UHGV virus genome: UHGV-1579991
Source of the DNA: a virus
Length of the DNA stretch: 64,000 nucleotides
Reading direction: 5' to 3' (one strand)
The notes below the pieces were generated by a model. It saw only the letters and a program-made list of their open reading frames with translations. It was not told where the DNA came from and ran no database searches. Of this stretch, positions 13,428 to 62,524 are shown in pieces. The stretch's first letter is position 1. Every line of letters begins with the position of its first letter. Made by a program: the position numbers and the translations under genes.

Positions 13428-13666
13428 AGTTTCTTGTCAATATCAAAATATGACGTAAAGCGATTCACAAATTCAACAAACAAAATCGACAATGCATCAC
13501 ACATACCAATGAGAGTTGATACGCCAAAATACGCTGCAACTCTTGTGCTCTTATTGAACACTACTCTACTATATACACCACTCTGCCATGATGGCTTTGC
13601 GGTGACAAGCATTGATTGCTTGATTTTGTCTCTTGTTGTGAAATTCGATTGCATATTTGTGAATCA

Positions 13667-15277
13667 TCAACATTCTACATACGAGCCATCAGTGTTTTCA
13701 ACAAGCACTTTGATGCTCAAGCCCACATCTGTGCCTTGCTGACTTCTTATCAATGGCACAATGTTTTTTGATCGTGGTGCAATGTTGCCCATATTGTCAA
13801 TGTGCACGTCATTGCCAATGAACTGCACATCTACTGATTTGATGACATCAAGCTCTTCAAGTTTTGCGATTGCAGCAGAACGACTAACGAATGTCGATGC
13901 ATTTGACCATGAGTCTTCTACAAATGCTTTTGCAGCATCAAGTAATTGTTGCTTGACGTCTTCTATATTTTGCAGTACTGCAGTCTTTTTGACAAGAATG
14001 AGCATCTGATAAAATTCAAGTTGCACAGTGTCAAATTGCACATCAGTTAGCAGCACATAGTCACCAGTGTTTTCAATAGCATTGTTCAGATATTGTCTAT
14101 CTATAGAGTCAATCGTAAATTCTGCTATTGGCAATGACCAGTAGTCATACACTATTGAGCCCGCTTTGACATACTTGTCTGCAATGTTAGGCACCAACAC
14201 GACATGAATTGTCTGAGTCTCTGTATTTGACCAGACATCAAGTATCTTGTACTGACCAAAACGTGACATGAATGCTCTGATTGAATCTGCTGAGTGCAAC
14301 ACAAGTGCCCTGTTAATTGAGCCTGCATGTGAACGTATAGATTCGATGTCTTCACCATTGTAACCACCTACAATGTCTGTCAGCTGTTCAATGACTAATA
14401 CACCCTTTGGACTTACTGCAGTAGTGTTTGCATCATACATACCATTGACCCATTCAAATGTTGCATCATTGTCAATCAAAATGTTTCCTGCATAGCCCTC
14501 ACATGCAGTGTATTCTACATTGACGACTGCATTTTGTGCAGGAATTTGACCAGCAGTGCCATTGCCAAACACAATCTGTAGTTTGCCATCATATGACCAG
14601 CGTTCAATGTATCCCTTGCTGTATCGGTCCATTTCATCAAACCCTGCATAGCGAGTCCACAGTTCATTACCAACTGTGACAGTCAATGAATCTTCAGATA
14701 CAATCAAGTTGCGTTCTTCGATAGTGAATGTTGTCATTGACTCACCATCAGAAATATATTGCTGAGACTTGCGTTCACCTTGTCTGACTGCGAATTCATA
14801 TCGTACACCTGTCAACTCATTGTTGATGTTGAGTTGCGCAAAGTCTTGATGTATATCGATGTAGTACATCAATGAGTTCTCTTTGCATTTAATTGCTGCG
14901 TATCGTTTAATGAACACAGTTGGACCAAGCTCTTTGACTGCGTCATATGAAAAACTCAATGCAATTTTGCCTGATGCTGCAATGCCACCAACGCATTTGT
15001 AACATGCAAGCTGCGCAAGGCCTCGTACAGATGCAGTTTGTTCTGCAGTAAGCAAGTTGTTTTCTTTTGTGCCTACTACAATTTGCGTAAAGATGAGTGA
15101 CGCAAGTTCTCTGAAACTCTGAACAAGAATTCCAAAAATTGTGTACTTACCATATTGTTTCTTTGTAGAGTTCAGCAAATTCTGCAGCCAAGTATCTATA
15201 GACTGTGACACACCTGAATATGACATTTGCATTTTCTGCATCCATGTCATATTGTCACGAGTGTTATTTGTGCGCAT
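13667..15277 (-). CDS. hypothetical protein, about 537 aa; start trimmed
   Basis: Track ORF 13667-15400 reads through the terminator hairpin and tandem repeats; start moved to the first ATG after the repeats (15277). Start is uncertain. Confidence 0.65.
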   Translation of the reverse strand: MRTNNTRDNMTWMQKMQMSYSGVSQSIDTWLQNLLNSTKKQYGKYTIFGILVQSFRELASLIFTQIVVGTKENNLLTAEQTASVRGLAQLACYKCVGGIAASGKIALSFSYDAVKELGPTVFIKRYAAIKCKENSLMYYIDIHQDFAQLNINNELTGVRYEFAVRQGERKSQQYISDGESMTTFTIEERNLIVSEDSLTVTVGNELWTRYAGFDEMDRYSKGYIERWSYDGKLQIVFGNGTAGQIPAQNAVVNVEYTACEGYAGNILIDNDATFEWVNGMYDANTTAVSPKGVLVIEQLTDIVGGYNGEDIESIRSHAGSINRALVLHSADSIRAFMSRFGQYKILDVWSNTETQTIHVVLVPNIADKYVKAGSIVYDYWSLPIAEFTIDSIDRQYLNNAIENTGDYVLLTDVQFDTVQLEFYQMLILVKKTAVLQNIEDVKQQLLDAAKAFVEDSWSNASTFVSRSAAIAKLEELDVIKSVDVQFIGNDVHIDNMGNIAPRSKNIVPLIRSQQGTDVGLSIKVLVENTDGSYVEC

Positions 15278-15304
15278 ATCAGTTAATTTGTTTGTATATG
15301 TATT

Positions 15305-15377
15305 CGAATGTGCACACATGAGAATAGGTCTCTTCGAATGTGCACATATGAGAATAGTCTCTTCGAATATGCGCACA
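15305..15377. repeat. tandem direct repeat, about 30-bp unit x 2.5 (cgaatgtgcacacatgagaataggtctctt)
   Basis: Read directly from the sequence; lies between a terminator hairpin and the next gene start. Confidence 0.7.
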
Positions 15378-15381
15378 AAAA

Positions 15382-15407
15382 GAAGAGCTTGCATATGCAA
15401 GCTCTTC
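15382..15407 (-). terminator. perfect palindromic hairpin (gaagagcttgcat/atgcaagctcttc) downstream of the gene ending at 15450
   Basis: About 12-bp stem; T-run follows on the minus strand. Confidence 0.55.
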
Positions 15408-15449
15408 CATCACCAAAACCTATCTAATTATGGAAACACCTCTGAAAGG

Positions 15450-18090: not shown

Positions 18091-18208
18091 GTTGTTTATC
18101 TTAAGTTTGTATATGTACAAATAATGTTGATGTTGTATTGAAGCATCGCAAAATAAGGCCAGACTACTCGGTTGAGCTTGCCTGACCTTTTCAAATGCAT
18201 TTTGCTTA

Positions 18209-19105
18209 TTACAGTGTTCCGCAAAGCAATTCACGTAAATCCATGCCAGCTTGTGTACTATACTGAGCAATAAGATTACGTTCTGAATCAGACATGCTCC
18301 AATAAATCTTATGCTGAGCTCTACGAATAATAGTATGAATGCCAGATGTGCTACAATTGAACTTCTTTGCAAGTTCTGCATGAGTTAGCAAATCAGCATC
18401 ACCAAGGCCATACACATGTGTGAGTACAAGCTTTTCATTTTGAGTGAGTTGTTCAAATGCTCTTTGCAGAATCTTTGTGTTGCGTTTGTGAGCATCCTCG
18501 ATTTCAAGAACTTCTTGGCCTGTTTTGAAGTCTGACCTCAAATCATTCTGAACTGGTGACCATGCATCACCATCTTTGTCAAGTGTAGTGTCATCCTTGC
18601 TGGTGAATTGTTTGCCTTCAAGAGCTCTTTCATATGCTCCACGAATGCCAGTAGATAATTGTTGACTTGTCAAATTGAGTTCATCAAGTACATATTTCTT
18701 AATCCAAGGATATGCATATGTGCTAAACTTTGCTTCACGAACTCCTGCAGGCAATACGCCTTCTACATAATTCTTGGCTGCTATTGACAATCCAAGATTG
18801 CCTGCTTGAATGACATCATCCAGCGGAACTGAGCGTTTGCCAGATGCGAACCATAAGCTTCGTGCAACTGATATGACCAGTCTTAAGCAAGATTTGATAA
18901 GAGCTTCACGATTTTCTTGAGTCTTCTTGAATCGAGTAACATCACAATATCGCTTTGCAGTAGCCAGCGATTTGACTTCTTCAGGAGTAAGCTCATTCTC
19001 CATCCTCATTTGCTTGAGCTCCTCCTTTGTGTATAGACGTTCTCTTGTTATTCTACCTACGTCCTTTACGTAGCCTTGATTGATTTGTGAATTTGAACCT
19101 GCCAT
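18209..19105 (-). CDS. sigma-70 family RNA polymerase sigma factor, 298 aa
   Basis: Region-2-like FSTYAYPWIKKYV and region-4-like HTH (LTHAELAKKFNCSTSGIHTIIRRAQHKI). Confidence 0.65.
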   Translation of the reverse strand: MAGSNSQINQGYVKDVGRITRERLYTKEELKQMRMENELTPEEVKSLATAKRYCDVTRFKKTQENREALIKSCLRLVISVARSLWFASGKRSVPLDDVIQAGNLGLSIAAKNYVEGVLPAGVREAKFSTYAYPWIKKYVLDELNLTSQQLSTGIRGAYERALEGKQFTSKDDTTLDKDGDAWSPVQNDLRSDFKTGQEVLEIEDAHKRNTKILQRAFEQLTQNEKLVLTHVYGLGDADLLTHAELAKKFNCSTSGIHTIIRRAQHKIYWSMSDSERNLIAQYSTQAGMDLRELLCGTL

Positions 19106-19133
19106 GGTTGTGTAACTTATTTAGTTTTAATTT

Positions 19134-19162
19134 GTTATATAAATTTAATCATTTTTTGTCAC
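19134..19162 (-). promoter_or_regulatory. sigma70-like promoter candidate (GTGACA-N17-TATAAC) upstream of the sigma factor gene
   Basis: Hexamers read on the minus strand with 17-nt spacing, about 30 nt upstream of ATG 19105. Confidence 0.4.
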
Positions 19163-21837: not shown

Positions 21838-21890
21838 ATCTTCAAATTGTATTTAGGATATGTACCAAACAAACAAAAAGCTTGACTTAT

Positions 21891-26000: not shown

Positions 26001-26506
26001 AATTGCCACCATTGTGCATCATCTGATGACGCGTCATACCAGTACACTTTGCCATCTGGTGCAATGACCCAGTCTGCGTATGACAAAGCGTCTGTATGCA
26101 AAATGTTGCAAAACGCAGGTTTGTTTGCATCTGAACAGAACTCATTGAATGCTGCAGCATCGACAACTTTTGCAGTACCTGCGTCATTTTGCGTAGCTGA
26201 CCAATCACTGCCAAATGTTGCATTGATATCAGCAAGTGATGCATACATAATGCGGTTGCCTCGATAGCCATCGAAGCCAGGCAAACCACGGTCACCAGTT
26301 TCACCAATACGCCCCTTAAATAGGGGTGAATTCACTATACGTGAAAAGTTATAGTTGAGCGCCTCGATAAGCGCTGGGTACGAATCAACTTGTAACTTTT
26401 TCAGTACAATTGGCTGTGCTTTATGTTCTGCAGACATATTGTTCAGATATTTTGCTTTGTATATGTATTCGAGACTTTGTTGAGAATCGTCTGTCACTAT
26501 GTGCAT
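23099..26506 (-). CDS. fibre-like protein, 1135 aa: short collagen-like Gly-X-Y stretch plus C-terminal Ig-like repeats
   Basis: GRIGETGDRGLPGFDGYRGN near the N-terminus; 4-5 C-terminal repeats ending in TQAAK/TQAAQ, the same inter-domain motif as the 1442-aa protein. Confidence 0.7.
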   Translation of the reverse strand: MHIVTDDSQQSLEYIYKAKYLNNMSAEHKAQPIVLKKLQVDSYPALIEALNYNFSRIVNSPLFKGRIGETGDRGLPGFDGYRGNRIMYASLADINATFGSDWSATQNDAGTAKVVDAAAFNEFCSDANKPAFCNILHTDALSYADWVIAPDGKVYWYDASSDDAQWWQFTGLQLLTSDNDNLNVIITQIIEELIKTKYGGTIKSYAAMFNIAADGQPGAEIDNNYSNKHTGALSIGLESVPRYNNVDSSVILLAPSDTQIDGLGNANNKAAKPVVQILGNPYYYYDLTQRTLNRLDADKKNQLPGLDAFPHMLLQNDFNSGLVFGFASDDSHVKSFADLATLWQSYEGIRLRNHFTSAVNELDILSYANLKYDELFLAKGLDAESKRESFIRAYKFAQLINQSYRIAALSDAGVVTDILTLTKQLLKLAATVDLQLMKLPGASVLGTDATGKVVDMLLSIFKSSDNWSSIIIDGANANKHLPTASAVKKLFNSIFDNFDAHLFECQYKHVFIDGSNHLAAGVGASNTVLAYDGSGRLTEEAKKSAFNKDFAGSGYASTVSHSDHTHAEYAHKDDLTPPVYVESFDDHVPGTTAMQTLVPLPAYLNMPATVDILLDITVPFIVYGNGYASVKVDLSYRPVSGGAATQIDADKPSTCAVLPACLTSIDTAKTWSELQDACNELHYQAILRNVASSGVWPIYVIATPTFGGSANAVIFEPRVIASVVQYSTGASTRPEIIVTSSMSLNAAGGSSEITYQIRNGYAGAAVTAYATESWIHNVQVADGKITFDYDKTLQTSARTANIVLQYPTADNVAVLLTQAAKEATVINAEPLTINAAANGGSFTVNFNISNPIEGETLTVAAEGSGFVGEPAVNMSAGTIQFALDINTATATRNLYLRLSYMTADNVTVSITQAAQGVSTIIVEPMTAQLKSTDTQAQFEITVGNPIAGQQLSYAVLDNDGAFIDTNFEYDDNTGKGYLTIECDRNLTTEQRSCSVKFSHINAQDVTAQVIQAAKGVTTINITPASATTDDTAKTLSFNYEIINPIDGESLTAVIVGNPGWLHDITITPSKTTPAIGEISIQVDELSYSDIDAFSRVAAFKCSYNTAQDVSVEVTQELHGIGSMIIEDISKPFIVR

Positions 26507-35444: not shown

Positions 35445-36719
35445 TTATATATTTGACAGCTGTTTGCGTTGCAAAATTGCATGACCGCAGTCATATACTG
35501 CAACATAACCTGCATCAATCATCTCTTGCTCATTTTGTCCGCAGTCTTCAATATGTTCTTTTGTCTTTAAATGACACCAGTGTTTGCGAATTGTTGACTT
35601 GTCATCTGACAGTTGCGGATTAAGTGCGAAGTTAGTTGAGTCTACTGGTTCACCTGCAAGATGCTTTCGAATGACATCAATGACTTCATTGTCATCCATC
35701 CATTCGAATATTGTAATGCAAGTGTAGCCAAGCTTAAGAGCAAGCTGAGTTTTGTCGAAGTGATAGAATTTGCTAACATGCTTATTGTGTGTAGTACGGC
35801 CAATTAAATATGCAAAACCATATGTTGAATTGTGTGACCAAGTTGGATTGATTTCAATCAATAATTTGCAATGTTCATTACTGTAATTGAGGTCATATGA
35901 CCATCGCTCAAGATTGACATCATCAAGCCCACAATCAATCCCAAGTTCTTGCAGCAATTTGTCATGCCACCAATGGTTTGCTCGTGATTTTACATGACCT
36001 TGAGCATCACGACATTTAGCAGTCATACAAAAATATGGGACACCATAGCGTTGCATGTTAGTTGACGCAATTTTTTGCAAATCGCCTGCAGCAGACCCAT
36101 ATTTTTGTCGTTTTGTTGCAACTGCTACTGCAATATTGCCAAATTTGTTGCCATATCGTTTCTGTTTAGTTTCAAGTGCTTTGTCAATATTTATGATGCC
36201 TCTTGTACCATGTTCTTTTTCACGTTTAGCTAAAATTGTTTGCATGTCGCCAAGTTTGTTGCCATATCGTTGCAATTTAGTTTCATGCATTTTTGCAATA
36301 TTTGTCCAACTATCACCATAATGTTGTCTATGTGTTGCAGCGCAACGTGCTTTGTCACCAAACATGTGTCCAAACTTTGCTAAACGACGCTCAACAAATT
36401 TTTGCATGTCACCCATGCCATTACCATATCGTTTCTGCTTAGTTGCAACAGCCTTTTGCATATTGACACCTCGATAGCCATAACGCATTTCTATTGTTGT
36501 AGTAATTTTATCACTGATGACTTTTGATTGCTGAGCATACTCAAAACCATATTTACGCAAGCAGCCAATTCGCTTATTATATTTCAAACGAATTTTACCA
36601 TGTGATGTCTTCTTTGGGCCATACCATTCATATGGCGTTTCTGCAATCAATTTATCACGTTCAGCTTCAAGTTCTTTTATTCGAGCTTCAAGAGCTTCAC
36701 CTATTAATTGTGTTGCCAT
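35445..36719 (-). CDS. repeat-rich (RYG-x-G) putative homing endonuclease or DNA-binding protein, paralog 2, 424 aa
   Basis: Same repeat architecture and C-terminal domain (LIEINPTWSHNSTYGFAYLIGR) as the gene at 19209-20267. Confidence 0.7.
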   Translation of the reverse strand: MATQLIGEALEARIKELEAERDKLIAETPYEWYGPKKTSHGKIRLKYNKRIGCLRKYGFEYAQQSKVISDKITTTIEMRYGYRGVNMQKAVATKQKRYGNGMGDMQKFVERRLAKFGHMFGDKARCAATHRQHYGDSWTNIAKMHETKLQRYGNKLGDMQTILAKREKEHGTRGIINIDKALETKQKRYGNKFGNIAVAVATKRQKYGSAAGDLQKIASTNMQRYGVPYFCMTAKCRDAQGHVKSRANHWWHDKLLQELGIDCGLDDVNLERWSYDLNYSNEHCKLLIEINPTWSHNSTYGFAYLIGRTTHNKHVSKFYHFDKTQLALKLGYTCITIFEWMDDNEVIDVIRKHLAGEPVDSTNFALNPQLSDDKSTIRKHWCHLKTKEHIEDCGQNEQEMIDAGYVAVYDCGHAILQRKQLSNI

Positions 36720-36728
36720 TATAAAATA

Positions 36729-36757
36729 TTGAGATATTCAATATATGTACATATAAT
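36729..36757 (+). promoter_or_regulatory. sigma70-like promoter candidate TTGAGA-N17-TATAAT upstream of terL
   Basis: Hexamers with 17-nt spacer; -10 element ends about 21 nt before ATG 36779; a 7-bp inverted repeat (atattga-N5-tcaatat) overlaps the -35 element. Confidence 0.45.
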
Positions 36758-36778
36758 ACGAATATTCAAATTAAACAT

Positions 36779-38770
36779 ATGTCTGAAGTTAAGCATCAAG
36801 TATATGACCCTGTAGCACAATTCAAATCTGCAGAAGAAAAGGAAGCTGCAAGAGTCGTGTGGTGTTCAGAAAGTGTGCGTCGTGCATATGCAGCAGTTGA
36901 CCAAGGCCTGCCATTACGGTCGAATCCCTGGTTCTTTGGCAATATTGCATTGCGTAAGCCAGGACTATTGTATAGATACTCTGACGTAGAGCTACGTGAA
37001 TGGCTTAGATGTGCTTATGATATACTGTACTTTGCCAACACATACGCTACACTCATGACACCTGCAGGTGTGCGAATGCATATTACGTTGCGACCATATC
37101 AGAAAAAAATGCTTCGTGCGTATCAAAAGCAAAAGTACATTATAAGTTTGTGTGGACGACAAATAGGCAAAACTACGACTGCTGCAATTTTCCTCGCTTG
37201 GGCTGTCATTTTCAATCGTGAGCTCAACATAGCAGTACTTGGCGACCGCTTGGCTACATCAAGTGAAAACCTGAACAAAACAAAAGACATCATAAACAAT
37301 CTGCCATTCTTTATGAAGCCTGGTGTGTTTGTTTGGAATGGTGGAATGGTCGCATTTGACAATGGCTGCAAAATTATCACAGGTACTGCTCAAAAGTCAT
37401 CACTTGTCGGTAAAACAATTCACATCTTGTATCTTGATGAGCTCGCAATTCCGCCTGCTCAGCAATCAAAGACTCTTGTAGACTATGCATTGCCCACAAT
37501 TGCATCATTGCCAACTGGCAAAGTTATCGTAACATCTACGCCATCTGGTGATAATGTGTTCAAGACTTTGTGGCTTGGTGCAATTAACAAAACAAATGGA
37601 TTCTTTCCAATTCAAGTAAACTGGTGGGACATTCCAGGTCGTGATGAAAAGTGGAAAGCTGAACAAATTGCAATTCTTGGTGAAGATGCTTTCAATGAGC
37701 AATACAACTGCGTGTTCTTGTCAGGTGCAACGTCAATTTTCAATTCAAGAGCAATTGATGATATTGCAAGACGACAACAAAAGTATGAATTTGTTGCTGA
37801 TGAGCGTCTTGAATCGCTGCTCAGATTTTTCATTGCTGATTCAGATGTTGGCACTGAACCTGAGCCGCATTCATTTATGACTTGGCGTGCAGATATTGAC
37901 CCAGCGACACTCAAAAATGAAACATGTATCATCAACATCGACATCGCTGAAGGCTTATCTGGCGACTTTTCTGTCATACATGTGCATCGTATAGTTGACA
38001 TTGCAAAAGATGCTGAACTTGAACTTGATGCAAGCAATCTGTATGATATGTTTGACGATGACAAAAAATCATTGTTTGCAAAAGCAGTTGAAATGCAACG
38101 TCAAATGTCGGCAACACAAGCTCAAGATGATGACGATGATGACGATGACGACTGGTTTGGCGCAGACGATGATGTTGCTCAAGGAGTCGATGCATATCAA
38201 GATTATGCGAATGCTGCAGTAGAAGAGATTGGCTTGTGGCGCTCAAATGTGACGTCAATTAAAGTCATGGCTCTGTATTTGCAGTTCTTAATGACATATG
38301 TGTTTGACGCAAACAAAACAAAGATTATCTATGAACGCAACAAATATGGTGGAGAGTTTCGTTCATATTGTTTGTCTGAACGTGCACGCAATATTGCAAT
38401 TGATGAAGAGAGCTTCGTAAGCTTCCAACGAACTCTTGGTTCAGAACAACTTGCACCAGGCTGTTCAATTACGCCTGGCACCAAACCAGTGTACGTAAGA
38501 CAGCTCAAAGACCTTATTGAAACTGGCAAGATTCTTGAAAACAATGCAGATACGCAAAGAGAGCTTACATACTTTGGCGGTGTCAAAGGCAAGAATGGTC
38601 ATGTGTCATATCAGGCATCACCAGGCTTCCATGATGACATTGCAATGACTCTTGTATCTCTTGCAGCATTTATGGACACTCGATGCAACGATTGGCTTGA
38701 ACTGCTTGATGTGTTCTACAATGGCAGCAGTCAAACAAGTTCTGATGATGACGATGATGACTGGATTTGA
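36779..38770 (+). CDS. terL: terminase large subunit, 663 aa, with unusual poly-Asp insertions
   Basis: Walker A GRQIGKTT and Walker B ILYLDE in the N-terminal ATPase domain; acidic runs QAQDDDDDDDDDWFGADDD and C-terminal SSDDDDDDWI. Confidence 0.9.
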   Translation: MSEVKHQVYDPVAQFKSAEEKEAARVVWCSESVRRAYAAVDQGLPLRSNPWFFGNIALRKPGLLYRYSDVELREWLRCAYDILYFANTYATLMTPAGVRMHITLRPYQKKMLRAYQKQKYIISLCGRQIGKTTTAAIFLAWAVIFNRELNIAVLGDRLATSSENLNKTKDIINNLPFFMKPGVFVWNGGMVAFDNGCKIITGTAQKSSLVGKTIHILYLDELAIPPAQQSKTLVDYALPTIASLPTGKVIVTSTPSGDNVFKTLWLGAINKTNGFFPIQVNWWDIPGRDEKWKAEQIAILGEDAFNEQYNCVFLSGATSIFNSRAIDDIARRQQKYEFVADERLESLLRFFIADSDVGTEPEPHSFMTWRADIDPATLKNETCIINIDIAEGLSGDFSVIHVHRIVDIAKDAELELDASNLYDMFDDDKKSLFAKAVEMQRQMSATQAQDDDDDDDDDWFGADDDVAQGVDAYQDYANAAVEEIGLWRSNVTSIKVMALYLQFLMTYVFDANKTKIIYERNKYGGEFRSYCLSERARNIAIDEESFVSFQRTLGSEQLAPGCSITPGTKPVYVRQLKDLIETGKILENNADTQRELTYFGGVKGKNGHVSYQASPGFHDDIAMTLVSLAAFMDTRCNDWLELLDVFYNGSSQTSSDDDDDDWI

Positions 38771-41397: not shown

Positions 41398-41500
41398 ATT
41401 TGGGATGGACTCTTACGTTTATTTAAGAATAAAGTACCACAAGTTGTCAAGTTTTGCTAACTTTGACGACTTGTGGTACGTCTGTTTTATGCATGCACTG

Positions 41501-41869
41501 TTATTTGATTGCGCGTTCAAACATTCTGCAGCACCAGTCTTTATATGCTGGATTGCCCTTAACATCTGCTCGGAATGCACAGTTGATAAGAGTCTTCTCT
41601 TCATCAACAAAGCATGCATAACGACAGTTTGCACAGCAACGAGCATCTTCTTGCTTAGTACAGAATGCTGCACATGTCATGTCATCTTCTGTGTTGCGAA
41701 TTGTTTTTGTTGGCGTGTATTCATAAGTGCACTGACAAATGCCATTATGTTCACGATGAAAGAAGCAATTTTTGCAAACATGCGCAACTTCTTCAACTGG
41801 TGCTGATGCTGCATATGTTTGTTCTTGCTCTACTGCAGACTGTGCAGCAGCTTTAGTCTTTTTTGCCAT
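41501..41869 (-). CDS. Cys-rich small protein, about 122 aa; start trimmed
   Basis: Track ORF started inside the tandem repeat (TTG); first ATG is at 41869 (MAKKTKAAAQ...); 14 Cys residues. Confidence 0.55.
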   Translation of the reverse strand: MAKKTKAAAQSAVEQEQTYAASAPVEEVAHVCKNCFFHREHNGICQCTYEYTPTKTIRNTEDDMTCAAFCTKQEDARCCANCRYACFVDEEKTLINCAFRADVKGNPAYKDWCCRMFERAIK

Positions 41870-41894
41870 TGTATCAAATGTTTGTATTTGTAAG

Positions 41895-41970
41895 TTGTTT
41901 TGATGCAAAATGCAAAACAATATAAAATTGTTTTGATGCAAAATGCAAAACAATATAAAATTGTTTTGAT
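41895..41970. repeat. tandem direct repeat, 33-bp unit x about 2.3 (ttgttttgatgcaaaatgcaaaacaatataaaa)
   Basis: Read directly from the sequence; intergenic, upstream of the Cys-rich gene; each unit carries two TGCAAAA half-sites. Confidence 0.8.
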
Positions 41971-41972
41971 AT

Positions 41973-43877
41973 CTACAAAGATTTGAACAATTCCTCGTAT
42001 GTTACAATTTTCTTGCCTTTTGCAAGTGCTGCTTTCATTTTGTTCGACAGCTTGTTGACATCATTTGTGACAACATAGTCACATGCATCAATGTTTGCAC
42101 CGACATCTTCAAGCTTACCATTTGCTGCATCAATAAATGCACCTTTTGTTGCCCAAGTAGGCTTAGGCGAGCCTGTCATGACAACCTTGATTGTGTTAGC
42201 ATGCGCAGATGCTTCTTTATGCATTTCATTGAACATCACGAAGCATTGTGGAAAGCGCTTGAGTAATCTTTGTATGACATTCAACTTTATGAGCCTGTCA
42301 ATTGGCTCCATGCTCAAGCCCTTAAAGTCATACTGGCAATTGCTAAAGTACGCAGACAACTGATATGCAGCTTTACCACCGAGACCAGGAATCTGCATGC
42401 ATTCAATGAAATGCGACAAGTGAATGCTACTGAAGCGTTCACGTAAGCCTGCAATGACTGTACGGTCATTTTTGCTGTTTGTGTCAAACTGCAGCAGCTC
42501 AAACAGTCGTTCATTGTCAACTTCTTGCACAATGCAGAACAAGTCTTCAATTGTGGGCGCATCAGAGAATGTCAACATGACATCAAGATTGTCTTGTGCA
42601 ATAAGCAATGCTTCACAAATTTTCGTAGCATAAACCCAGCCAAGCCCATCAATATTAAGCTTGCAAACGCCTTTGATAAACCTCGTGCATCTTGCAAATT
42701 CCTCAGGCATCATCAAGTGAATGCCATCGACATATGCATGTACAGGAATGTCAGCTTTGCTGCTATCACCAGGTTCAATACATTCTTGAATGTCTGGAAT
42801 AATGTCACCGCCCTTTTCAATACGAACAAGAGCGCCTGGCCAAATACCATTTGCATGCAAAAAGCCATAGTGAAATGCTGAAGCTGCTTTTACTGTAGTG
42901 CCATCAAGCTCAACAGGCTCAAGTTCAACTCTCGGAAAAAGCTCACCATTGATTCGCTGACGCCAATCAATTCGAGTCACTCGAGTTACAGCAGACATTG
43001 CGTCAAGCTTCAATGCAACCATGTTTGCATATTCTGCTGCATTTGCAAACTGCTGCTCAATCCACAAGTCATCTGCAAAAGGCTTGACTACAATGCCATC
43101 AATGCGATATTTGAATTCTGAACGCCCATTGGCAATTTTTGTGCAAGTTTCTGCAAACTCATTGTAATCAGTGACTTCAAAGACTTCTGCAATGAATTCT
43201 GCAGGCCAGCCAACTTTAGCAAGAGCATCTGCAGGATTGGTTTGCTCATATGTTTTGCCATCAAGTGTGTCAGTCAGCATGTATGCCATAGGGTCAATGT
43301 CTTCCATGCCACACATGTCTAATGACTTCACAAATGCTGCAGCAGTATTGCGCTCATTTTTGTATTTGACAGAGCCATCAGCATTGAAATGATATTTTTG
43401 TGCAAAAATGTCTTTTGCAATGACAGCCTCAAAGCGAATTTGATATGGCTGTTCTGCTGCAGCAAGCTGCATCGGCACTTTGCCTGCTACAACAAATTTG
43501 CGCGTGACATCATAGCCCGTATAGCCATCACCACGAGTAACAACTTTTAGCAATCTGCCATCAGTGTCGTAATGTGCTTCACAGCCCATGCCATCATACT
43601 TGTGCATAAGCAGCATTTCATGACCAACAATGTTGCACACAGTATCATGCAACGCAGTTGTAAACTGTGACTTTGTATGAATTGCAGCAAGACTCAATGC
43701 AGGTGTAAGATGCTTAACTTCTTGTTTATTTGACTCTTCAAAGCGAATCTTATGTTTAATGTCGCTATTTGCAAGAAGCTGCTGTTCAAGAGCATCAAAT
43801 GCCTCATCAGACATTATCGGATTGCCTGCATAATACGCAGCTATTGCGTCATGGTACATATTGAGTGTATCAGTCAT
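41973..43877 (-). CDS. ligA: NAD-dependent DNA ligase-like protein, 634 aa
   Basis: N-terminal Ia-like segment (AYYAGNPIMSDEAFDALEQQL) and adenylation motif KYDG with downstream TRGDG; motif-level call. Confidence 0.65.
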   Translation of the reverse strand: MTDTLNMYHDAIAAYYAGNPIMSDEAFDALEQQLLANSDIKHKIRFEESNKQEVKHLTPALSLAAIHTKSQFTTALHDTVCNIVGHEMLLMHKYDGMGCEAHYDTDGRLLKVVTRGDGYTGYDVTRKFVVAGKVPMQLAAAEQPYQIRFEAVIAKDIFAQKYHFNADGSVKYKNERNTAAAFVKSLDMCGMEDIDPMAYMLTDTLDGKTYEQTNPADALAKVGWPAEFIAEVFEVTDYNEFAETCTKIANGRSEFKYRIDGIVVKPFADDLWIEQQFANAAEYANMVALKLDAMSAVTRVTRIDWRQRINGELFPRVELEPVELDGTTVKAASAFHYGFLHANGIWPGALVRIEKGGDIIPDIQECIEPGDSSKADIPVHAYVDGIHLMMPEEFARCTRFIKGVCKLNIDGLGWVYATKICEALLIAQDNLDVMLTFSDAPTIEDLFCIVQEVDNERLFELLQFDTNSKNDRTVIAGLRERFSSIHLSHFIECMQIPGLGGKAAYQLSAYFSNCQYDFKGLSMEPIDRLIKLNVIQRLLKRFPQCFVMFNEMHKEASAHANTIKVVMTGSPKPTWATKGAFIDAANGKLEDVGANIDACDYVVTNDVNKLSNKMKAALAKGKKIVTYEELFKSL

Positions 43878-44554: not shown

Positions 44555-44608
44555 TGAAGTTTATTGTTATATAGTGATATAATACAACAAAAATCTCAAA
44601 TTTGCACA

Positions 44609-48890: not shown

Positions 48891-48934
48891 TTGTTGTTTG
48901 TTGATATATGTAAAAATATTGTACAACAATACTG

Positions 48935-56273: not shown

Positions 56274-56310
56274 ATTGTCGAAATCTTGTTTGTGTTATAT
56301 GTACACAAAA

Positions 56311-60134: not shown

Positions 60135-60235
60135 ATGTAGAGATTTTTGTAGTTTGTATCAATTGCATTCTATATCAATTGCATCTTGTATCAAATACAT
60201 TATATTGATATATGATAATTGTACTACAAAAATCC

Positions 60236-60397: not shown

Positions 60398-60883
60398 TCA
60401 TTTGTAGTGTTCAGTTATGTATGCAGAGCATAGCAAAACAACTGATACACAAATGACAATGTATGTTGGCGTAATCAGTGTCACATTGAATAACAATGCA
60501 GTCAATGCGCATACTGTTACTGATATGAGTGTTGAAATGAATGCAGCATATGCACTAAACTTGCTTTTTAACAAACGTTCGATGATATATGTTGTCGCAA
60601 CAGACAGTAAGACTACACATGCAAATAACAACAGCCAAGTTGAGTTTGACGTTGTCGGCTCTTCAATAAACTGCAATGTTGCTGATGGCACTTCAATATT
60701 GTTTGATGCTTGTAATGTGCCACTTGCAGCATCTGCGTACATCACAGTTAAGTAGTGTCGTTGAATTTCTGCTGCGTCTACTTTATAGATTCTATGCCAT
60801 GCAACATCTGATATGATGTATGTTGCAGCCATAAATGCAGCAATGCATAGCATATAAGAGCCAAACTTTGCAATCGGTTTCAT
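60398..60883 (-). CDS. multi-pass membrane protein, about 161 aa; start trimmed
   Basis: Several hydrophobic helices; first ATG with a sensible N-terminus is at 60883 (MKPIAKFG). Confidence 0.55.
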   Translation of the reverse strand: MKPIAKFGSYMLCIAAFMAATYIISDVAWHRIYKVDAAEIQRHYLTVMYADAASGTLQASNNIEVPSATLQFIEEPTTSNSTWLLLFACVVLLSVATTYIIERLLKSKFSAYAAFISTLISVTVCALTALLFNVTLITPTYIVICVSVVLLCSAYITEHYK

Positions 60884-61258
60884 GCAAATATATTTTTGTT
60901 TGTATATGTACATAAAAGAGCAAGTTCTCCACATTGAGAACTTGCTCAGCTGACCTGTTACCAGGTGAAAGCGTGGTGCAGCACCTTGTGCTGCAATGGC
61001 TATGCTGCCATCGCCATAACGGGCTGAGCATTGCCCAGCATCATTACACGACCAGCTGCATTAAGCGTACGCTTTGCTTTGTTGAAAAATTTGCCAGTTA
61101 TCTGGTATCTGCACATCTATTCAAGCGACCTACTATGCAATCAAATGCCTGTCGAGCCCAATGTTTGAGCAGTTGTTTGTCAGATGCTCAGCTGACTGCA
61201 GTCTTTCTGAGTGTATCAAGTTCAGCGATTCTGCATCTTTGCTAAATGGCAATGGTTC

Positions 61259-61300
61259 AGGTGGACTCGCCGAGAATCGAACTCGGGTCTTACATAGCGC
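61259..61300 (-). other. tRNA 3'-half-like element (T-arm plus acceptor 3' strand) with no 5' partner
   Basis: CCGAG/TTCGATT/CTCGG T-arm followed by CGAGTCC-A-CC; no complementary 5' acceptor strand was found upstream. Confidence 0.2.
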
Positions 61301-61342
61301 ATCCTTGACTTGGTCCTGTAAACAGGGTTGTCAACATGCATT

Positions 61343-61413
61343 GCAATACGACAGGACTCGAACCTGCGACCTCGGATTGGACGTCCGCGCTCTTACCGCT
61401 GAGCTACGTATTC
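61343..61413 (-). tRNA. tRNA-like gene with canonical D- and T-arms but non-canonical anticodon arm (possible pseudo-tRNA)
   Basis: GCTC/AGCGGTAA/GAGC D-arm and GCAGG/TTCGAGT/CCTGT T-arm; acceptor stem 6 of 7 pairs; the region GTCCAAT could not be folded into a standard anticodon stem-loop by hand. Confidence 0.35.
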
Positions 61414-61506
61414 TTATCAATTGACTGCACTGCAATGCAATCAATCGTGCCAATGATATTTGACACGCATAATTGCAGTTATGCGTAACAATTCAAATGT
61501 CATTTG

Positions 61507-61579
61507 AGCCAACTGCAGGAATCGAACCTGTAACCTGCTGAGTACAAATCAGCTGCTCTACCAATTGAGCTAAGTTGGC
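61507..61579 (-). tRNA. tRNA-Thr (anticodon TGT)
   Basis: Hand-folded cloverleaf: 7-bp acceptor stem GCCAACT/AGTTGGC, D-arm GCTC..GAGC, anticodon stem GCTGA/TCAGC with loop TTTGTAC, T-loop TTCGATT; CCA not encoded. Confidence 0.8.
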
Positions 61580-61584
61580 ATAAA

Positions 61585-61658
61585 GTCGTTGGGCCATTGC
61601 AACCCAAACCTATCATCTTTGCCTAACCAAAGATGCAAGCGCTCTCTTACACCACGAC
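61585..61658 (-). other. tRNA-like element with irregular arms (possible degenerate tRNA)
   Basis: Acceptor-like pairing GTCGTGG/CCAACGAC (6 of 7) and a long hairpin CATCTTTG/GTTAGG/CAAAGATG; T-loop atypical. Confidence 0.2.
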
Positions 61659-61661
61659 TTG

Positions 61662-61733
61662 TAGCCGAACTTGGAGTCGAACCAAGCTTTCGAGAATGAA
61701 AATCTCGCGTCCTAACCGATAGACGAAACGGCC
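61662..61733 (-). tRNA. tRNA-Glu (anticodon TTC), with two mismatches in the acceptor stem
   Basis: D-stem GTCT/GGAC, anticodon stem CGAGA/TCTCG with loop TTTTCAT, T-arm CTTGG/TTCGACT/CCAAG; acceptor 5 of 7 pairs. Confidence 0.55.
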
Positions 61734-61916
61734 AAGAGCAGTTCAAGTCTGCAGCATTGAACTGCGGAAACAATGCCTGTACGGGCAACCAATTGTGCAG
61801 ATACAGCGACATTGCAAAATCACACCGAACCAAGTTTGTGGCTCTTCTGTCTCATAAAAACAAGTAATCATTACACTTGGCACCAATGATTTTGATGTAA
61901 AAATCGGTGTGTTACG

Positions 61917-62001
61917 CGGAGAGTAAGGGATTCGAACCCCTGGTACGTTGCCGTACAGTGGTTTTCAAGACCACCGCCATCGACCGCTCGGCCAACTCTC
62001 C
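61917..62001 (-). tRNA. tRNA-Ser (anticodon TGA), type II with long variable arm
   Basis: Acceptor GGAGAGT/ACTCTCC, D-arm GCCGAGCGGTCGATGGC, anticodon stem GTGGT/ACCAC with loop CTTGAAA, long variable arm, T-loop TTCGAAT. Confidence 0.8.
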
Positions 62002-62194
62002 ATAAAACATTGCATAAGCATTCTTATCTCTTGATGAGGCCAAGTAGCTAATTTGGCAAGTTTGTTATATCTATCGTGACTGTTGCAGTTTGTTGTCACT
62101 CAATACACAAAACTTTCGAACATTCATTGACAACACTGCAATATCGCTTTTTAAGCTCAGCCATCAATGTATTTATGCAATGTATAACAATTCG

Positions 62195-62276
62195 TAGCCA
62201 AACCGGGACTTGAACCCAGACTCCTAATGGAACAACATTTTGAGTGTTGCGTGTCTACCAATTCCACCATTTGGCC
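62195..62276 (-). tRNA. tRNA-Leu (anticodon CAA), type II
   Basis: Acceptor GGCCAAA/TTTGGCT, anticodon stem CAACA/TGTTG with loop CTCAAAA, 13-nt variable arm, T-loop TTCAAGT. Confidence 0.75.
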
Positions 62277-62373
62277 ATTTGCAAATGCAAGCTGTTTCAC
62301 AACTGTTTGCATTTGCATTTGCATTGTTTAACACACTAAAATATGATTCATCTAATCAAAAACCAGAGAATTG

Positions 62374-62446
62374 TCGAGAATGTGCGATTTGAACGCCAAT
62401 TATACGTCCCAAACGTATCGTGTTACCGGATTACACTACATTCTCG
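62374..62446 (-). tRNA. tRNA-Pro (anticodon TGG), with irregular D-arm and T-stem
   Basis: Acceptor CGAGAAT/ATTCTCG perfect; anticodon stem ATACG/CGTAT with loop TTTGGGA; T-loop TTCAAAT. Confidence 0.6.
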
Positions 62447-62453
62447 TTAATTG

Positions 62454-62524
62454 TTGAACTGTCTGGACTCGAACCAGAAATATATCATCCAAAGTGATAT
62501 GTGTTACCATTACACCACAGCTCA
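62454..62524 (-). tRNA. tRNA-Gln (anticodon TTG)
   Basis: Acceptor TGAGCTG/CAGTTCA (one G-T pair), D-stem GTGT/ACAC, anticodon stem TATCA/TGATA with loop CTTTGGA, T-arm TCTGG/TTCGAGT/CCAGA. Confidence 0.8.

What the first reader, a model, noticed from the sequence alone, without database searches (positions are those of the whole stretch)
41895..41970. 33-bp tandem repeats form the promoter region of a Cys-rich protein gene
About 2.3 copies of ttgttttgatgcaaaatgcaaaacaatataaaa lie between the ligase-like gene and the 14-cysteine small protein gene (ATG 41869). The ORF track extended the protein through the repeat, but the real start is the ATG after it. The arrangement suggests multi-site regulator binding.
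Basis: seen in the sequence. Interest (0 to 1): 0.35.

Follow-up and report, generated by a model that had tools for sequence, protein, structure and literature searches.

The report
Strain-variable palindromic repeat between phage genes
The 33-bp tandem repeat is real, but it is an optional AT-rich palindromic minisatellite present in 0 to about 3 copies among strains of one gut phage, sitting between the ligase gene and a small Cys-rich gene beside the signals that are actually conserved, so it is a modest, fairly ordinary feature.

Summary
Window 41895-41970 holds 2.3 perfect copies of a 33-bp unit (21% G+C), 0 expected by chance. It lies between the TAG of an NAD-dependent DNA ligase gene and ATG 41869 of a 122-aa Cys-rich ORFan, both on the minus strand.

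Homologues at 62% and 27% identity begin MAK(K/N)K, and the commonest allele has an in-frame stop in the upstream extension.

The repeat is not a conserved promoter or operator. Among about 35 loci of the same phage species I found 11 spacer alleles carrying 0, 1.3, 2.2-2.3 or 3.2 units. Relatives at 62% and 48% have no repeat.

Two other features are conserved:
- A phage-wide gene-start motif (TACATATACAAAC family). A one-mismatch copy lies at 41880-41892, 23 nt before the ATG.
- An unusually strong complementarity (-13.1 kcal/mol) between the last 18 nt of the ligase ORF and the 19 nt ending in the A and U of the AUG. It brackets the array.

Best reading: a slippage-prone palindromic minisatellite tolerated in the loop of this stem, at most modulating expression. 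A regulator-binding array remains possible but unsupported. A coding reading was tested and refuted. Interest is low to moderate.

The parts
41973..43877 (-). NAD-dependent DNA ligase gene (634 aa), stop TAG at 41975-41973
   Evidence: Pfam PF01653 and PF03120, PHROG 3869 at 2.7e-82. All 15 listed members of the 39-member homologue cluster are 634-635 aa.
41974..41991 (-). 5' arm of a long-range inverted repeat (AUUGUUCAAAUCUUUGUA), made of the last codons of the ligase plus the U and A of UAG
   Evidence: Inverted repeat I13. Outer stem of the minimum-energy fold in all 10 alleles. Duplex of -13.1 kcal/mol, the strongest of 23 junctions, reached by 2 of 2000 shuffles. Invariant in 30 loci. 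Coordinates.
41895..41970 (-). 33-bp tandem array, 2.3 perfect copies. Read on the coding strand it is orphan arm CAAAACAA followed by 2 x [S1 TTTTATA | A TTGTTTTG | S2 CATTTTGCAT | A' CAAAACAA].
   Evidence: TRF, pattern search, 11 alleles with 0 to 3.2 units.
41913..41935 (.). 23-bp palindrome CAAAACAAT-N5-ATTGTTTTG (A'-S1-A), promoter-proximal copy. It would form an RNA hairpin of -6.3 kcal/mol.
41946..41968 (.). The same 23-bp palindrome, ligase-proximal copy
41895..41920 (.). 26-bp inverted-repeat module TTGTTTTG-N10-CAAAACAA (A-S2-A'), promoter-proximal copy. This is the best-conserved part of the unit.
   Evidence: Variation per nucleotide is about 5 times lower than in S1, by my count of the alleles.
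41928..41953 (.). Second copy of the 26-bp module
41880..41892 (-). Promoter-like gene-start motif TACAAATACAAAC, one mismatch from the phage's TACATATACAAAC, 23 nt before the ATG
   Evidence: 3 exact, 2 one-mismatch and 2 two-mismatch copies, all on the coding strand. TACATAT has 11 of 20 coding-strand hits in the 10.5% non-coding DNA (p 1e-6) and lies 22-30 nt before ATGs. GTACATATAAC precedes the homologous gene in the 48% clade.
41868..41886 (-). 3' arm of the long-range inverted repeat (UACAAACAUUUGAUACAAU), the leader of the Cys-rich gene up to the A and U of AUG
   Evidence: The only variant among 30 loci falls on the unpaired CxC position.
41501..41869 (-). Cys-rich ORFan gene (122 aa, 13 Cys), true start ATG 41869
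   Evidence: No Pfam or PHROG family. Only 2 clusters among 1.84 billion representatives. Homologue starts.
41425..41479 (-). Strong intrinsic terminator after the Cys-rich gene: 46-nt hairpin 41434-41479 (-23.2 kcal/mol) followed by a T-run at 41425-41433
   Evidence: Conserved in other strains (alignment).

Best explanation
The array is an accessory, strain-variable minisatellite built from a 33-bp AT-rich palindromic unit. It has expanded in the short spacer between the ligase gene and the Cys-rich gene of an uncultivated gut phage of about 175 kb, probably with a Bacteroidota host.

Its alternating arms (CAAAACAA / TTGTTTTG) make it prone to replication slippage and hairpin-mediated template switching. 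That would account for units being gained, lost and trimmed at the palindrome centre, but this mutational mechanism is inferred.

The array is not the promoter and is not required. Two flanking elements are conserved:
- a phage-type promoter-like core, TACAAATACAAAC, 23 nt before the ATG;
- a long-range stem that pairs the last 18 nt of the ligase reading frame with the Cys-rich leader up to the A and U of its AUG.

On a ligase-to-Cys-rich read-through transcript the array would sit in the apical loop of that stem and fold into its own small hairpins. The stem is predicted to form equally well with 0 to 5 units, so copy number can drift freely.

The likely role of the stem is to mask the Cys-rich start site until a ribosome finishing the ligase ORF melts it (translational coupling). 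Transcripts that begin at the internal promoter-like core would lack the 5' arm and escape that control. The array itself would at most fine-tune this junction.

Shown here: the repeat, its polymorphism, the conserved motif, the complementarity and the start codon. Inferred: the slippage origin, co-transcription, translational coupling and near-neutrality of copy number.
For: - Presence/absence and copy-number polymorphism. There are 11 spacer alleles of 33, 37, 71, 96, 103 (four variants), 106 (two variants) and 139 nt among conspecific loci whose Cys-rich proteins fall in one 90% cluster.
- Copy-number classes are interleaved in clustering based on the flanks. L159 has flanks identical to the window over 1,269 nt but one arm substitution.
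- Relatives at 62% (L005/L006) and 48% (L137/L139) keep the gene but have no repeat.
- Indels concentrate at the palindrome centre: TTTTATA, TTTTACA, TATA, CATA. One variant is a perfect 20-bp palindrome.
- The array hairpins are weak, -4.5 to -6.3 kcal/mol, against -17.7 to -23.2 for this phage's real terminators.
- The gene-start motif is enriched on the coding strand in non-coding DNA (p 1e-6) at 22-30 nt from ATGs. The copy here is at 23 nt.
- The outer stem appears in the minimum-energy fold of all 10 alleles and has P about 0.96 with 0 to 5 units.
- The duplex is -13.1 kcal/mol, against a next-best -7.5 and a median of -4.4 across 23 junctions. Only 2 of 2000 shuffles reach it.
- Both arms are invariant in 30 loci, and the single leader variant falls on the unpaired position.
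- Ribosome-assisted unfolding of intercistronic structure is an established coupling mechanism (PMC4538824).
Against: - Where the array is present its sequence is very well conserved. Only 7 of 97 ungapped spacer columns vary, against 30% of third codon positions (Fisher p 3e-7) and 17% of the downstream non-coding spacer. The proximal 52 nt are almost invariant between lineages that differ by 5-9% in the flanks. That fits selection on the unit better than pure neutrality, unless the array is young and was spread by recombination.
- The long-range stem is species-specific. It is weak and not significant in the 62% relative (-7.8 kcal/mol, 270 of 2000 shuffles) and absent in the 48% clade.
- The 5' arm is coding and the 3' arm overlaps the promoter-like core and the start region, so their invariance has other possible causes.
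- Shuffled inserts preserve the stem about as often as the native array, so the palindromes are not explained by the stem.
- Six of the alleles come from single short-read contigs, so assembly error in those cannot be excluded. The 33-nt allele and two of the 103-nt alleles recur in independent samples (5, 14 and 2 loci; the other multi-locus entries are repeat fetches of one contig).
- There are no expression data.
Confidence: 0.5

Rival explanations
1. Operator array. Each 26-bp module TTGTTTTG-CATTTTGCAT-CAAAACAA is a binding site for a dimeric DNA-binding protein encoded by the phage or the host. Two to three adjacent sites abutting the promoter-like core would repress or activate the Cys-rich gene cooperatively, much as the tandem operators of lambdoid phages do.
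For: The inverted repeats are perfect, with a constant 10-bp centre (S2), and lie 33 bp apart, about three helical turns. The proximal module ends 2 nt from the promoter-like core. By my count of the alleles, the module varies about 5 times less per nucleotide than the S1 linker, as expected if operators are constrained and the linkers between them are free. Substitution diversity in the spacer is as low as at codon positions 1-2.
Against: The module is unique within 64 kb, and the exact 23-bp palindrome occurs only at this locus in the two IMG/VR contigs that carry it, so no regulon is visible. Conspecific strains and relatives that keep the same gene and motif lack it entirely. The number of sites varies from 0 to 3, spacing varies between 30 and 33 bp, and the distal copy in the commonest allele carries 3 substitutions, one in an arm. 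No candidate regulator was identified. The Cys-rich protein could not be modelled (pLDDT 39).
Confidence: 0.2
2. Functional RNA hairpins. When transcribed from the ligase operon, the units would fold into stem-loops placed 4 nt after the ligase stop. They could act as a weak attenuator, an RNase processing site, or a barrier to 3'-exonucleases that stabilises ligase mRNA, as REP/BIME elements do in bacteria. Copy number would set the strength.
For: The position directly after a stop codon, with each hairpin followed by CAUUUUG. The arms are kept while the loop (S1) varies in length and sequence. The L159 arm change C to U still allows a G-U pair in RNA. The junction folds better than shuffles: z = -2.5 with 1 of 200 shuffles at least as good, and z from -2.5 to -4.2 across the array-bearing alleles.
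Against: The stems are AU-rich and weak, -4.5 to -6.3 kcal/mol, three to four times weaker than the phage's real terminators. The U-run is only four residues. Two of the three arm substitutions (L007, L158) break pairs without compensation, and no compensatory double change was seen. No Rfam family matches; all hits are far below gathering scores. The element is absent from many strains and relatives. Under this reading the conservation of S2 has no explanation.
Confidence: 0.15
3. Replication origin element. The AT-rich direct and inverted repeats next to replication genes would act as iterons or as a DNA-unwinding element.
For: The unit is 21% G+C in a genome of about 40%. It combines direct and inverted repeats. 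It sits in the replication module alongside ligase, exonuclease, clamp loader and topoisomerase.
Against: It is dispensable in conspecific strains and absent in relatives. There are only 2.3 units. Cumulative GC skew runs straight through 41.9 kb with no inflection. No initiator gene is evident next to it.
Confidence: 0.04
4. The 'spacer' is translated, either by read-through of the ligase TAG giving a C-terminal extension ISKQFYIVLHFA..., as an N-terminal extension of the Cys-rich protein, or as a small ORF.
For: In the first six alleles every indel was a multiple of three. Four of five substitutions were synonymous in the ligase frame, and that frame stayed open until a TGA 4 nt before the ATG. 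Spacer variability resembled codon positions 1-2.
Against: Further alleles differ in length by -70, -32 and -7 nt. L159 has a TAA in the ligase frame, and the commonest allele has a TAG in the Cys-rich frame. TAG is an ordinary stop here, used by 5 of 51 genes, the other four with short downstream extensions. Relatives have no such extension. Homologues start at MAKK.
Confidence: 0.01

Closest known systems
Bacterial VNTR / minisatellite loci in intergenic DNA, including promoter-proximal 'contingency' repeats
   Same: Head-to-tail perfect copies of a unit tens of bp long in non-coding DNA just upstream of a gene. Copy number differs between very close strains (0, 1.3, 2.2-2.3, 3.2 units) and the changes are recurrent.
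   Different: The unit is itself a palindrome. The locus is in a virulent-type phage genome. No link between copy number and expression has been shown, so a contingency function is only conjecture.
PeSL (promoter-early stem-loop) cassettes of T4-type phages (PMC2839356, PMC4122927)
   Same: A composite stem-loop plus promoter-like element in the spacer in front of a small ORFan gene in a large myovirus-like genome. The junction looks like a recombination boundary: identities of the ligase and the Cys-rich gene are discordant between strain pairs, and one relative has a gene inserted at this junction.
   Different: PeSLs are dispersed, sequence-similar copies at many junctions. Here only the promoter-like core is dispersed, and the repeat unit is unique to this one spacer and tandem. 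Its stems are far weaker than this phage's terminators.
Tandem operators of temperate phages (such as lambda OR1-3 / OL1-3); comparison from my own knowledge
   Same: Two to three adjacent inverted-repeat sites separated by short AT-rich linkers, next to a promoter.
   Different: There is no cognate repressor, no second operator region elsewhere, no conservation in relatives, and the number of sites is variable and dispensable.
REP/BIME extragenic palindromes of enterobacteria; comparison from my own knowledge
   Same: Palindromic units of about 30-35 bp immediately after a stop codon, in tandem with alternating arm orientation and strain-variable copy number. A possible role at the RNA level.
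   Different: REPs occur in hundreds of dispersed copies and are G+C-rich with stable stems. This unit is single-locus and AU-rich (-6 kcal/mol), and it is absent from 185,579 bacterial and archaeal species genomes.
BrickBuilt, a MITE with an internal minisatellite in Porphyromonas gingivalis (PMC4596501)
   Same: A minisatellite of perfect tandem units bracketed by short inverted repeats, intergenic, in a Bacteroidota-associated genome, with promoter-like content.
   Different: BrickBuilt is multi-copy (19 per genome). Here there is one locus. The bracketing arms are present in array-less alleles too, and one arm is ligase coding sequence, so this is not an inserted mobile element.
Translational coupling through ribosome-unfolded intercistronic RNA structure (PMC4538824; the classic MS2 coat-replicase case is from my own knowledge)
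   Same: Predicted pairing between the end of the upstream ORF and the start region of the downstream ORF, including part of the AUG.
   Different: The spacer is long (33-139 nt) and variable rather than short. There is an internal promoter-like core. The structure is only predicted and is restricted to this species.

Membership tests
Variable-number tandem repeat (minisatellite) | Head-to-tail copies of one unit, more than chance would give | tested here: met
   TRF reports period 33, 2.3 copies, 100% matches. None of 100 shuffles gives a match.
Variable-number tandem repeat (minisatellite) | Copy number differs among closely related genomes | tested here: met
   0, 1.3, 2.2-2.3 and 3.2 units in 11 alleles, interleaved on the flank-based clustering.
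Intrinsic (Rho-independent) terminator | Stable G+C-containing stem followed by a U-run | tested here: not met
   Array hairpins are -4.5 to -6.3 kcal/mol with 2 G-C pairs and a 4-U run, against -17.7 to -23.2 for the phage's own terminators. The terminator scan does not flag them.
Tandem operator array for a dimeric regulator | Inverted-repeat sites with fixed half-site geometry | tested here: inconclusive
   The A-S2-A' reading has a constant 10-bp centre in 17 of 18 units. The A'-S1-A reading has a centre that varies from 4 to 7 nt.
Tandem operator array for a dimeric regulator | Sites conserved wherever the regulated gene or promoter is conserved, or present at several promoters | tested here: not met
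   Unique in the window. Absent from array-less conspecific strains and from the 62% and 48% relatives.
Tandem operator array for a dimeric regulator | A cognate DNA-binding protein | not testable with these tools
   No candidate was found. The Cys-rich protein model is unusable (pLDDT 39).
PeSL cassette (T4-type phages) | Dispersed, sequence-similar stem-loop plus promoter copies at many gene junctions | tested here: not met
   The repeat unit and its palindrome occur only here. Only the promoter-like core is dispersed.
PeSL cassette (T4-type phages) | Flanks variable or ORFan genes and marks recombination boundaries | tested here: inconclusive
   The downstream gene is an ORFan. Identities either side of the junction are discordant, and a gene is inserted at the junction in L137. 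No formal breakpoint test was done.
MITE with internal minisatellite (BrickBuilt-like) | Multiple copies per genome, with terminal inverted repeats that come and go together with the element | tested here: not met
   Single locus. Both arms are present in array-less alleles, and the 5' arm is ligase coding sequence.
Iteron-type replication origin | An array required for replication, next to an initiator, with a skew inflection | tested here: not met
   Dispensable in strains. No inflection of cumulative GC skew near 41.9 kb.
Protein-coding sequence (read-through or N-terminal extension) | Open frame kept in all alleles, with indels in multiples of three | tested here: not met
   Length differences of -70, -32 and -7 nt. 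TAA (L159) and TAG (L007) stops fall in the candidate frames.
Translational-coupling stem (upstream ORF end pairs with downstream start region) | Significant complementarity between the two segments that covers the start codon region | tested here: met
   -13.1 kcal/mol, the strongest of 23 junctions, reached by 2 of 2000 shuffles. The A and U of AUG are paired. P is about 0.96.
Translational-coupling stem (upstream ORF end pairs with downstream start region) | Both cistrons on one transcript, and downstream translation dependent on upstream translation | not testable with these tools
   This needs RNA-seq and reporter assays. A strong terminator is seen only after the Cys-rich gene, not before it.
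Translational-coupling stem (upstream ORF end pairs with downstream start region) | Conservation or covariation in relatives | tested here: not met
   Invariant within the species. Not significant in the 62% relative and absent in the 48% clade. No compensatory changes were available to test.

The most novel reading that the evidence does not exclude
The array is a copy-number-tunable cis-regulatory device, a phage 'contingency locus'. Slippage between 0 and about 3 palindromic units would rapidly reset the expression of an ORFan Cys-rich protein, through regulator sites or through the geometry of the coupling stem. Phage populations would then carry standing expression variants of a gene that might act in host takeover or counter-defence.
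Probability: 0.12. Interest if true: 0.5.

Novelty: new member of a known kind. Interest (0 to 1): 0.25.

Why it matters
In practice the result corrects annotation. Gene callers run the Cys-rich ORF, and at 15.3 kb the baseplate-wedge ORF, through tandem repeats, and the true starts lie after them.

It also yields a usable gene-start motif, (TTTTTGT…)(G)TACATATA(A/C)C, for an uncultivated clade of gut phages of about 150-180 kb. And it flags one junction with unusually strong pairing between the end of one ORF and the start region of the next, which could be tested as translational coupling in a host group that lacks Shine-Dalgarno sequences.

The repeat itself is a useful strain marker (VNTR) for this phage in gut metagenomes. 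If copy number were shown to change expression, it would be an example of contingency-type regulation in a phage. Nothing here shows that yet.

Tried and rejected
1. Megablast of the 4.5-kb locus against deposited phages found no match. The best tblastn hits for the ligase are only about 29% identical, from Chryseobacterium phages.
The exact 26-nt module is absent from 185,579 bacterial and archaeal species genomes.
3. The Bacteroidota consensus promoter (TTTG-N19-21-TAnnTTTG) is not enriched in this phage's spacers and is absent here. The sigma-70 scan gave no more hits than shuffles; its two hits in the repeat are on the non-coding strand.
4. An ungapped search for the composite motif failed because the spacing varies, so I used k-mer enrichment instead.
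5. Rfam gave only chance-level hits far below gathering scores.
6. I took the coding or read-through hypothesis seriously after the first six alleles. Further alleles refuted it.
7. The idea that palindromic units are needed to keep the outer stem together is not supported, because shuffled inserts do as well.
8. The second tandem array at 15.3 kb is not hypervariable in the three strains checked, so strain-level instability is not a general property of this phage's arrays.
9. The structure prediction of the Cys-rich protein gave pLDDT 39 and pTM 0.23, which is unusable, so I ran no fold search. The protein has no Pfam or PHROG family and only two clusters among 1.84 billion representatives.
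10. The MITE reading was rejected because the arms are single-copy and present in array-less alleles.

Full report
**Observation**

Tandem Repeats Finder gives 41895-41970, period 33, 2.3 copies, 100% matches, score 152. The 33-mer occurs twice with no mismatch, and no shuffle of the window produces even a 3-mismatch copy.

All genes here are on the minus strand. The array lies between the stop codon (TAG, 41975-41973) of a 634-aa NAD-dependent DNA ligase and ATG 41869 of a 122-aa ORF rich in cysteine. The ligase matches Pfam PF01653 and PF03120 and PHROG 3869. The Cys-rich protein has 13 cysteines, not 14.

**Anatomy**

On the coding strand the spacer reads as follows:

TAG ATAT CAAAACAA [TTTTATA TTGTTTTG CATTTTGCAT CAAAACAA]x2 CT TACAAATACAAAC ATTTGATACA ATG

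- The unit is 21% G+C and is built from alternating complementary arms.
- One reading gives two 23-bp palindromes, CAAAACAAT-N5-ATTGTTTTG, at 41913-41935 and 41946-41968.
- The other reading gives two 26-bp inverted repeats, TTGTTTTG-N10-CAAAACAA, at 41895-41920 and 41928-41953.
- Neither recurs anywhere else in the 64 kb.

**Genome context**

The window is part of a large tailed-phage genome.
- Nearly all genes are on one strand. It carries baseplate, tape-measure-like and terminase genes, and a replication module with DHFR, ligase, exonuclease, clamp loader and topoisomerase II. There are seven tRNA genes.
- Near-identical contigs of 174-177 kb come from gut metagenomes.
- Gene starts lack Shine-Dalgarno sequences, and the nearest cultured-phage ligases are from Chryseobacterium phages. 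A Bacteroidota host is therefore likely, though this is inferred.

**Start codon**

- Homologues at 62% identity (P0002) and 27% identity (L139/L137; BLASTP E 4e-7 over the full length, same synteny) begin MAKKN / MAKNK and align from residue 1.
- The extension through the repeat is a gene-caller artefact that relies on TTG starts.
- In the commonest allele that frame contains a TAG.
- In array-less alleles there is no start codon between the ligase gene and the ATG.

I collected the junction from about 35 loci of the same phage species, in which the Cys-rich proteins fall in one 90% cluster and the flanks are 88-100% identical. Eleven spacer alleles emerged:

| Spacer length | Content | Loci |
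|---|---|---|
| 33 nt | no repeat | 5 loci, 5 samples |
| 37 nt | no repeat | L157 |
| 71 nt | 1.3 units | L155 |
| 96 nt | two 30-bp units | L158 |
| 103 nt (four sequence variants) | 2.3 units | see note below |
| 106 nt (two variants) | one unit shortened to 30 bp, giving a perfect 20-bp palindrome | L136, L142 |
| 139 nt | 3.2 units | IMGVR contig _149023 (L002/L003/L134) |

The four 103-nt variants are the window/L156 sequence, the L001 variant, the L159 variant, and the commonest allele (14 loci). In the commonest allele the distal unit has 3 substitutions.

- Copy-number classes are interleaved when strains are clustered on their flanks.
- L159 is identical to the window over 1,269 flanking nt yet has one arm substitution.
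- The 62% relative has a 48-bp spacer with an unrelated small hairpin. The 48% clade has no repeat at all.
- The array is therefore young, dispensable and repeatedly resized. Six alleles rest on single short-read contigs, and those need validation.

**A rival I had to test: is the spacer translated?**

With the first six alleles the evidence looked coding-like.
- All indels were multiples of three.
- Four of five substitutions were synonymous in the ligase frame beyond TAG.
- Spacer variability (7 of 97 columns) matched codon positions 1-2 and was far below third positions (30%, p 3e-7).

Further alleles refute it. Length differences of -70, -32 and -7 nt appear, along with a TAA in that frame in L159. 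TAG is an ordinary stop in this genome, used by 5 of 51 genes.

**What is conserved**

(a) A gene-start motif.
- On the coding strand, TTTTTGT, GTACATA and ATATAAC are 16-26 times enriched in spacers, with this spacer excluded from the count.
- TACATATACAAAC occurs three times exactly. With the 1- and 2-mismatch variants there are seven hits in all, every one on the coding strand.
- TACATAT has 11 of its 20 coding-strand hits in the 10.5% of non-coding DNA (p 1e-6), at 22-30 nt before ATGs. Some of those starts were refined using the motif. Four were not, and they lie at 23-30 nt.
- Genes carrying the motif include a baseplate wedge and a clamp loader.
- The homologous Cys-rich gene in the 48% clade is preceded by GTACATATAAC, even where another gene is inserted between it and the ligase.
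- In the window a one-mismatch copy, TACAAATACAAAC (41880-41892), lies between the repeat and the ATG, 23 nt from the ATG. The promoter-like element is therefore beside the repeat, not in it.

(b) A long-range inverted repeat.
- The last 18 nt of the ligase ORF (41974-41991) pair with the leader up to the A and U of AUG (41868-41886).
- This outer stem appears in the minimum-energy fold of all ten alleles, whatever the insert, and has P about 0.96 with 0 to 5 units.
- Its duplex energy is -13.1 kcal/mol, the strongest of 23 comparable junctions. The next best is -7.5 and the median -4.4, and 2 of 2000 shuffles reach it.
- Both arms are invariant in 30 loci. The only leader variant is at the unpaired CxC position.
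- The stem is not conserved in the 62% relative (-7.8 kcal/mol, not significant) or in the 48% clade.

**What the array is not**

- It is not a terminator. Its hairpins are -4.5 to -6.3 kcal/mol, against -17.7 to -23.2 for the phage's real terminators, one of which follows the Cys-rich gene at 41434-41479.
- It matches no Rfam family.
- It is not dispersed or MITE-like.
- It is not at a GC-skew inflection.

**Interpretation**

The best-supported reading is a slippage- and template-switch-prone palindromic minisatellite. It has expanded in the loop of a conserved stem linking the ligase end to the Cys-rich start region, next to an internal promoter-like core.
- The stem plausibly couples Cys-rich translation to ligase translation through ribosome-assisted unfolding (mechanism as in PMC4538824). 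This step is inferred.
- The array is tolerated there and may at most modulate the junction.
- The main counter-evidence is that the unit, especially the 26-nt module and the proximal copy, is far less diverged between lineages than neutral sites. This keeps two functional readings alive: operator sites at 0.2 and RNA hairpins at 0.15.
- The variable part of the unit is the 4-7-nt S1 segment. It is either a hairpin loop or a linker between operators, and these data cannot tell which.

**Comparison with known systems**

- The locus behaves like a VNTR: both defining features were tested and met.
- Its layout resembles the PeSL terminator/promoter cassettes of T4-type phages (PMC2839356, PMC4122927), tandem operators and REP/BIME elements.
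- It fails the dispersal and conservation criteria of each of these.
- It is not a BrickBuilt-type MITE (PMC4596501).

**Verdict**

'Promoter region' is partly right, and 'multi-site regulator binding' is unsupported but not excluded. The locus is a new member of a known kind, of low to moderate interest (0.25).

Noticed in passing
window 15277-15408: A second tandem array (15303-15377, 30 bp x 2.6, 89% matches; the unit contains the palindromes ATGTGCACAT and TTCGAA) lies between a strong terminator hairpin (15382-15408) and an exact TACATATACAAAC (15290-15302), 12 nt before ATG 15277 of the baseplate-wedge gene. The mechanical ORF (TTG 15400) runs through it, the same annotation trap as at 41.9 kb. 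Copy number is the same in three strains.
   Followed up: partly
window-wide, e.g. 56296-56310, 44576-44592, 21858-21878, 18105-18117, 60898-60910, 26455-26467, 48900-48912; also L137, L139, L141: A gene-start motif found only on the coding strand, (TTTTTGT N1-9)(G)TACATATA(A/C)C, 22-30 nt before ATGs. It is conserved in the clade with about 48% ligase identity. It is probably this phage group's own promoter type, and it does not match the Bacteroidota TTTG/TAnnTTTG consensus.
   Followed up: partly
window 60154-60194, 13409-13447, 1-180: More tandem arrays (16 bp x 2.6 just upstream of ATG 60134; 19 bp x 2.1 across the mechanical TTG start 13427 of ORF 12078-13427; 84 bp x 2.1 at the window edge, coding status not established). 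With the arrays at 41.9 and 15.3 kb these are the five highest-scoring TRF arrays in the window, and most lie in or at the edge of non-coding spacers.
   Followed up: no
window 41425-41479: A strong intrinsic terminator (46-nt hairpin, -23.2 kcal/mol, then a T-run) directly after the Cys-rich gene. It would make that gene the last in a transcription unit that probably starts at the motif near 44576-44592.
   Followed up: partly
L137 4430-4480: In a relative with 48% ligase identity, a 397-aa gene is inserted between the ligase and the Cys-rich homologue. A 22-bp x 2 direct duplication (AAATTCATAATGTTGATATGAA) spans the ligase stop and the start of the inserted gene, which looks like an insertion footprint.
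   Followed up: no
ligase 3' 900 nt and Cys-rich gene across strains (window 41501-42875 and homologous loci): Identities on the two sides of the spacer are discordant between strain pairs (for example window vs L155: 92.0% in the ligase and 98.4% in the Cys-rich gene). A segment 200-350 nt from the ligase 3' end has pi of 0.16-0.21. Both point to frequent recombination with a boundary near this junction.
   Followed up: partly
window 60909-62524: A cluster of seven tRNA genes (Gly, Thr, Glu, Ser, Leu, Pro, Gln) at 61343-62524. ARAGORN also calls a permuted 'tmRNA*' at 60909-61351; its 3' end overlaps the 5' end of ORF 60398-60934 and it is probably a false positive.
   Followed up: no
window 35445-38770: The terminase large subunit (36779-38770) is the only clear plus-strand gene. 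It is transcribed divergently from a gene with a weak homing-endonuclease match (35445-36719, PHROG 3339 at 1e-5).
   Followed up: no
array-less alleles L150-L154 (33-nt spacer): In strains without the array the ligase TAG is followed directly by ATATAACAAATTA. The same 13-mer occurs at window 19128-19140, upstream of gene 18209-19105. The array-bearing and array-less haplotypes therefore carry different versions of the promoter-like element.
   Followed up: partly
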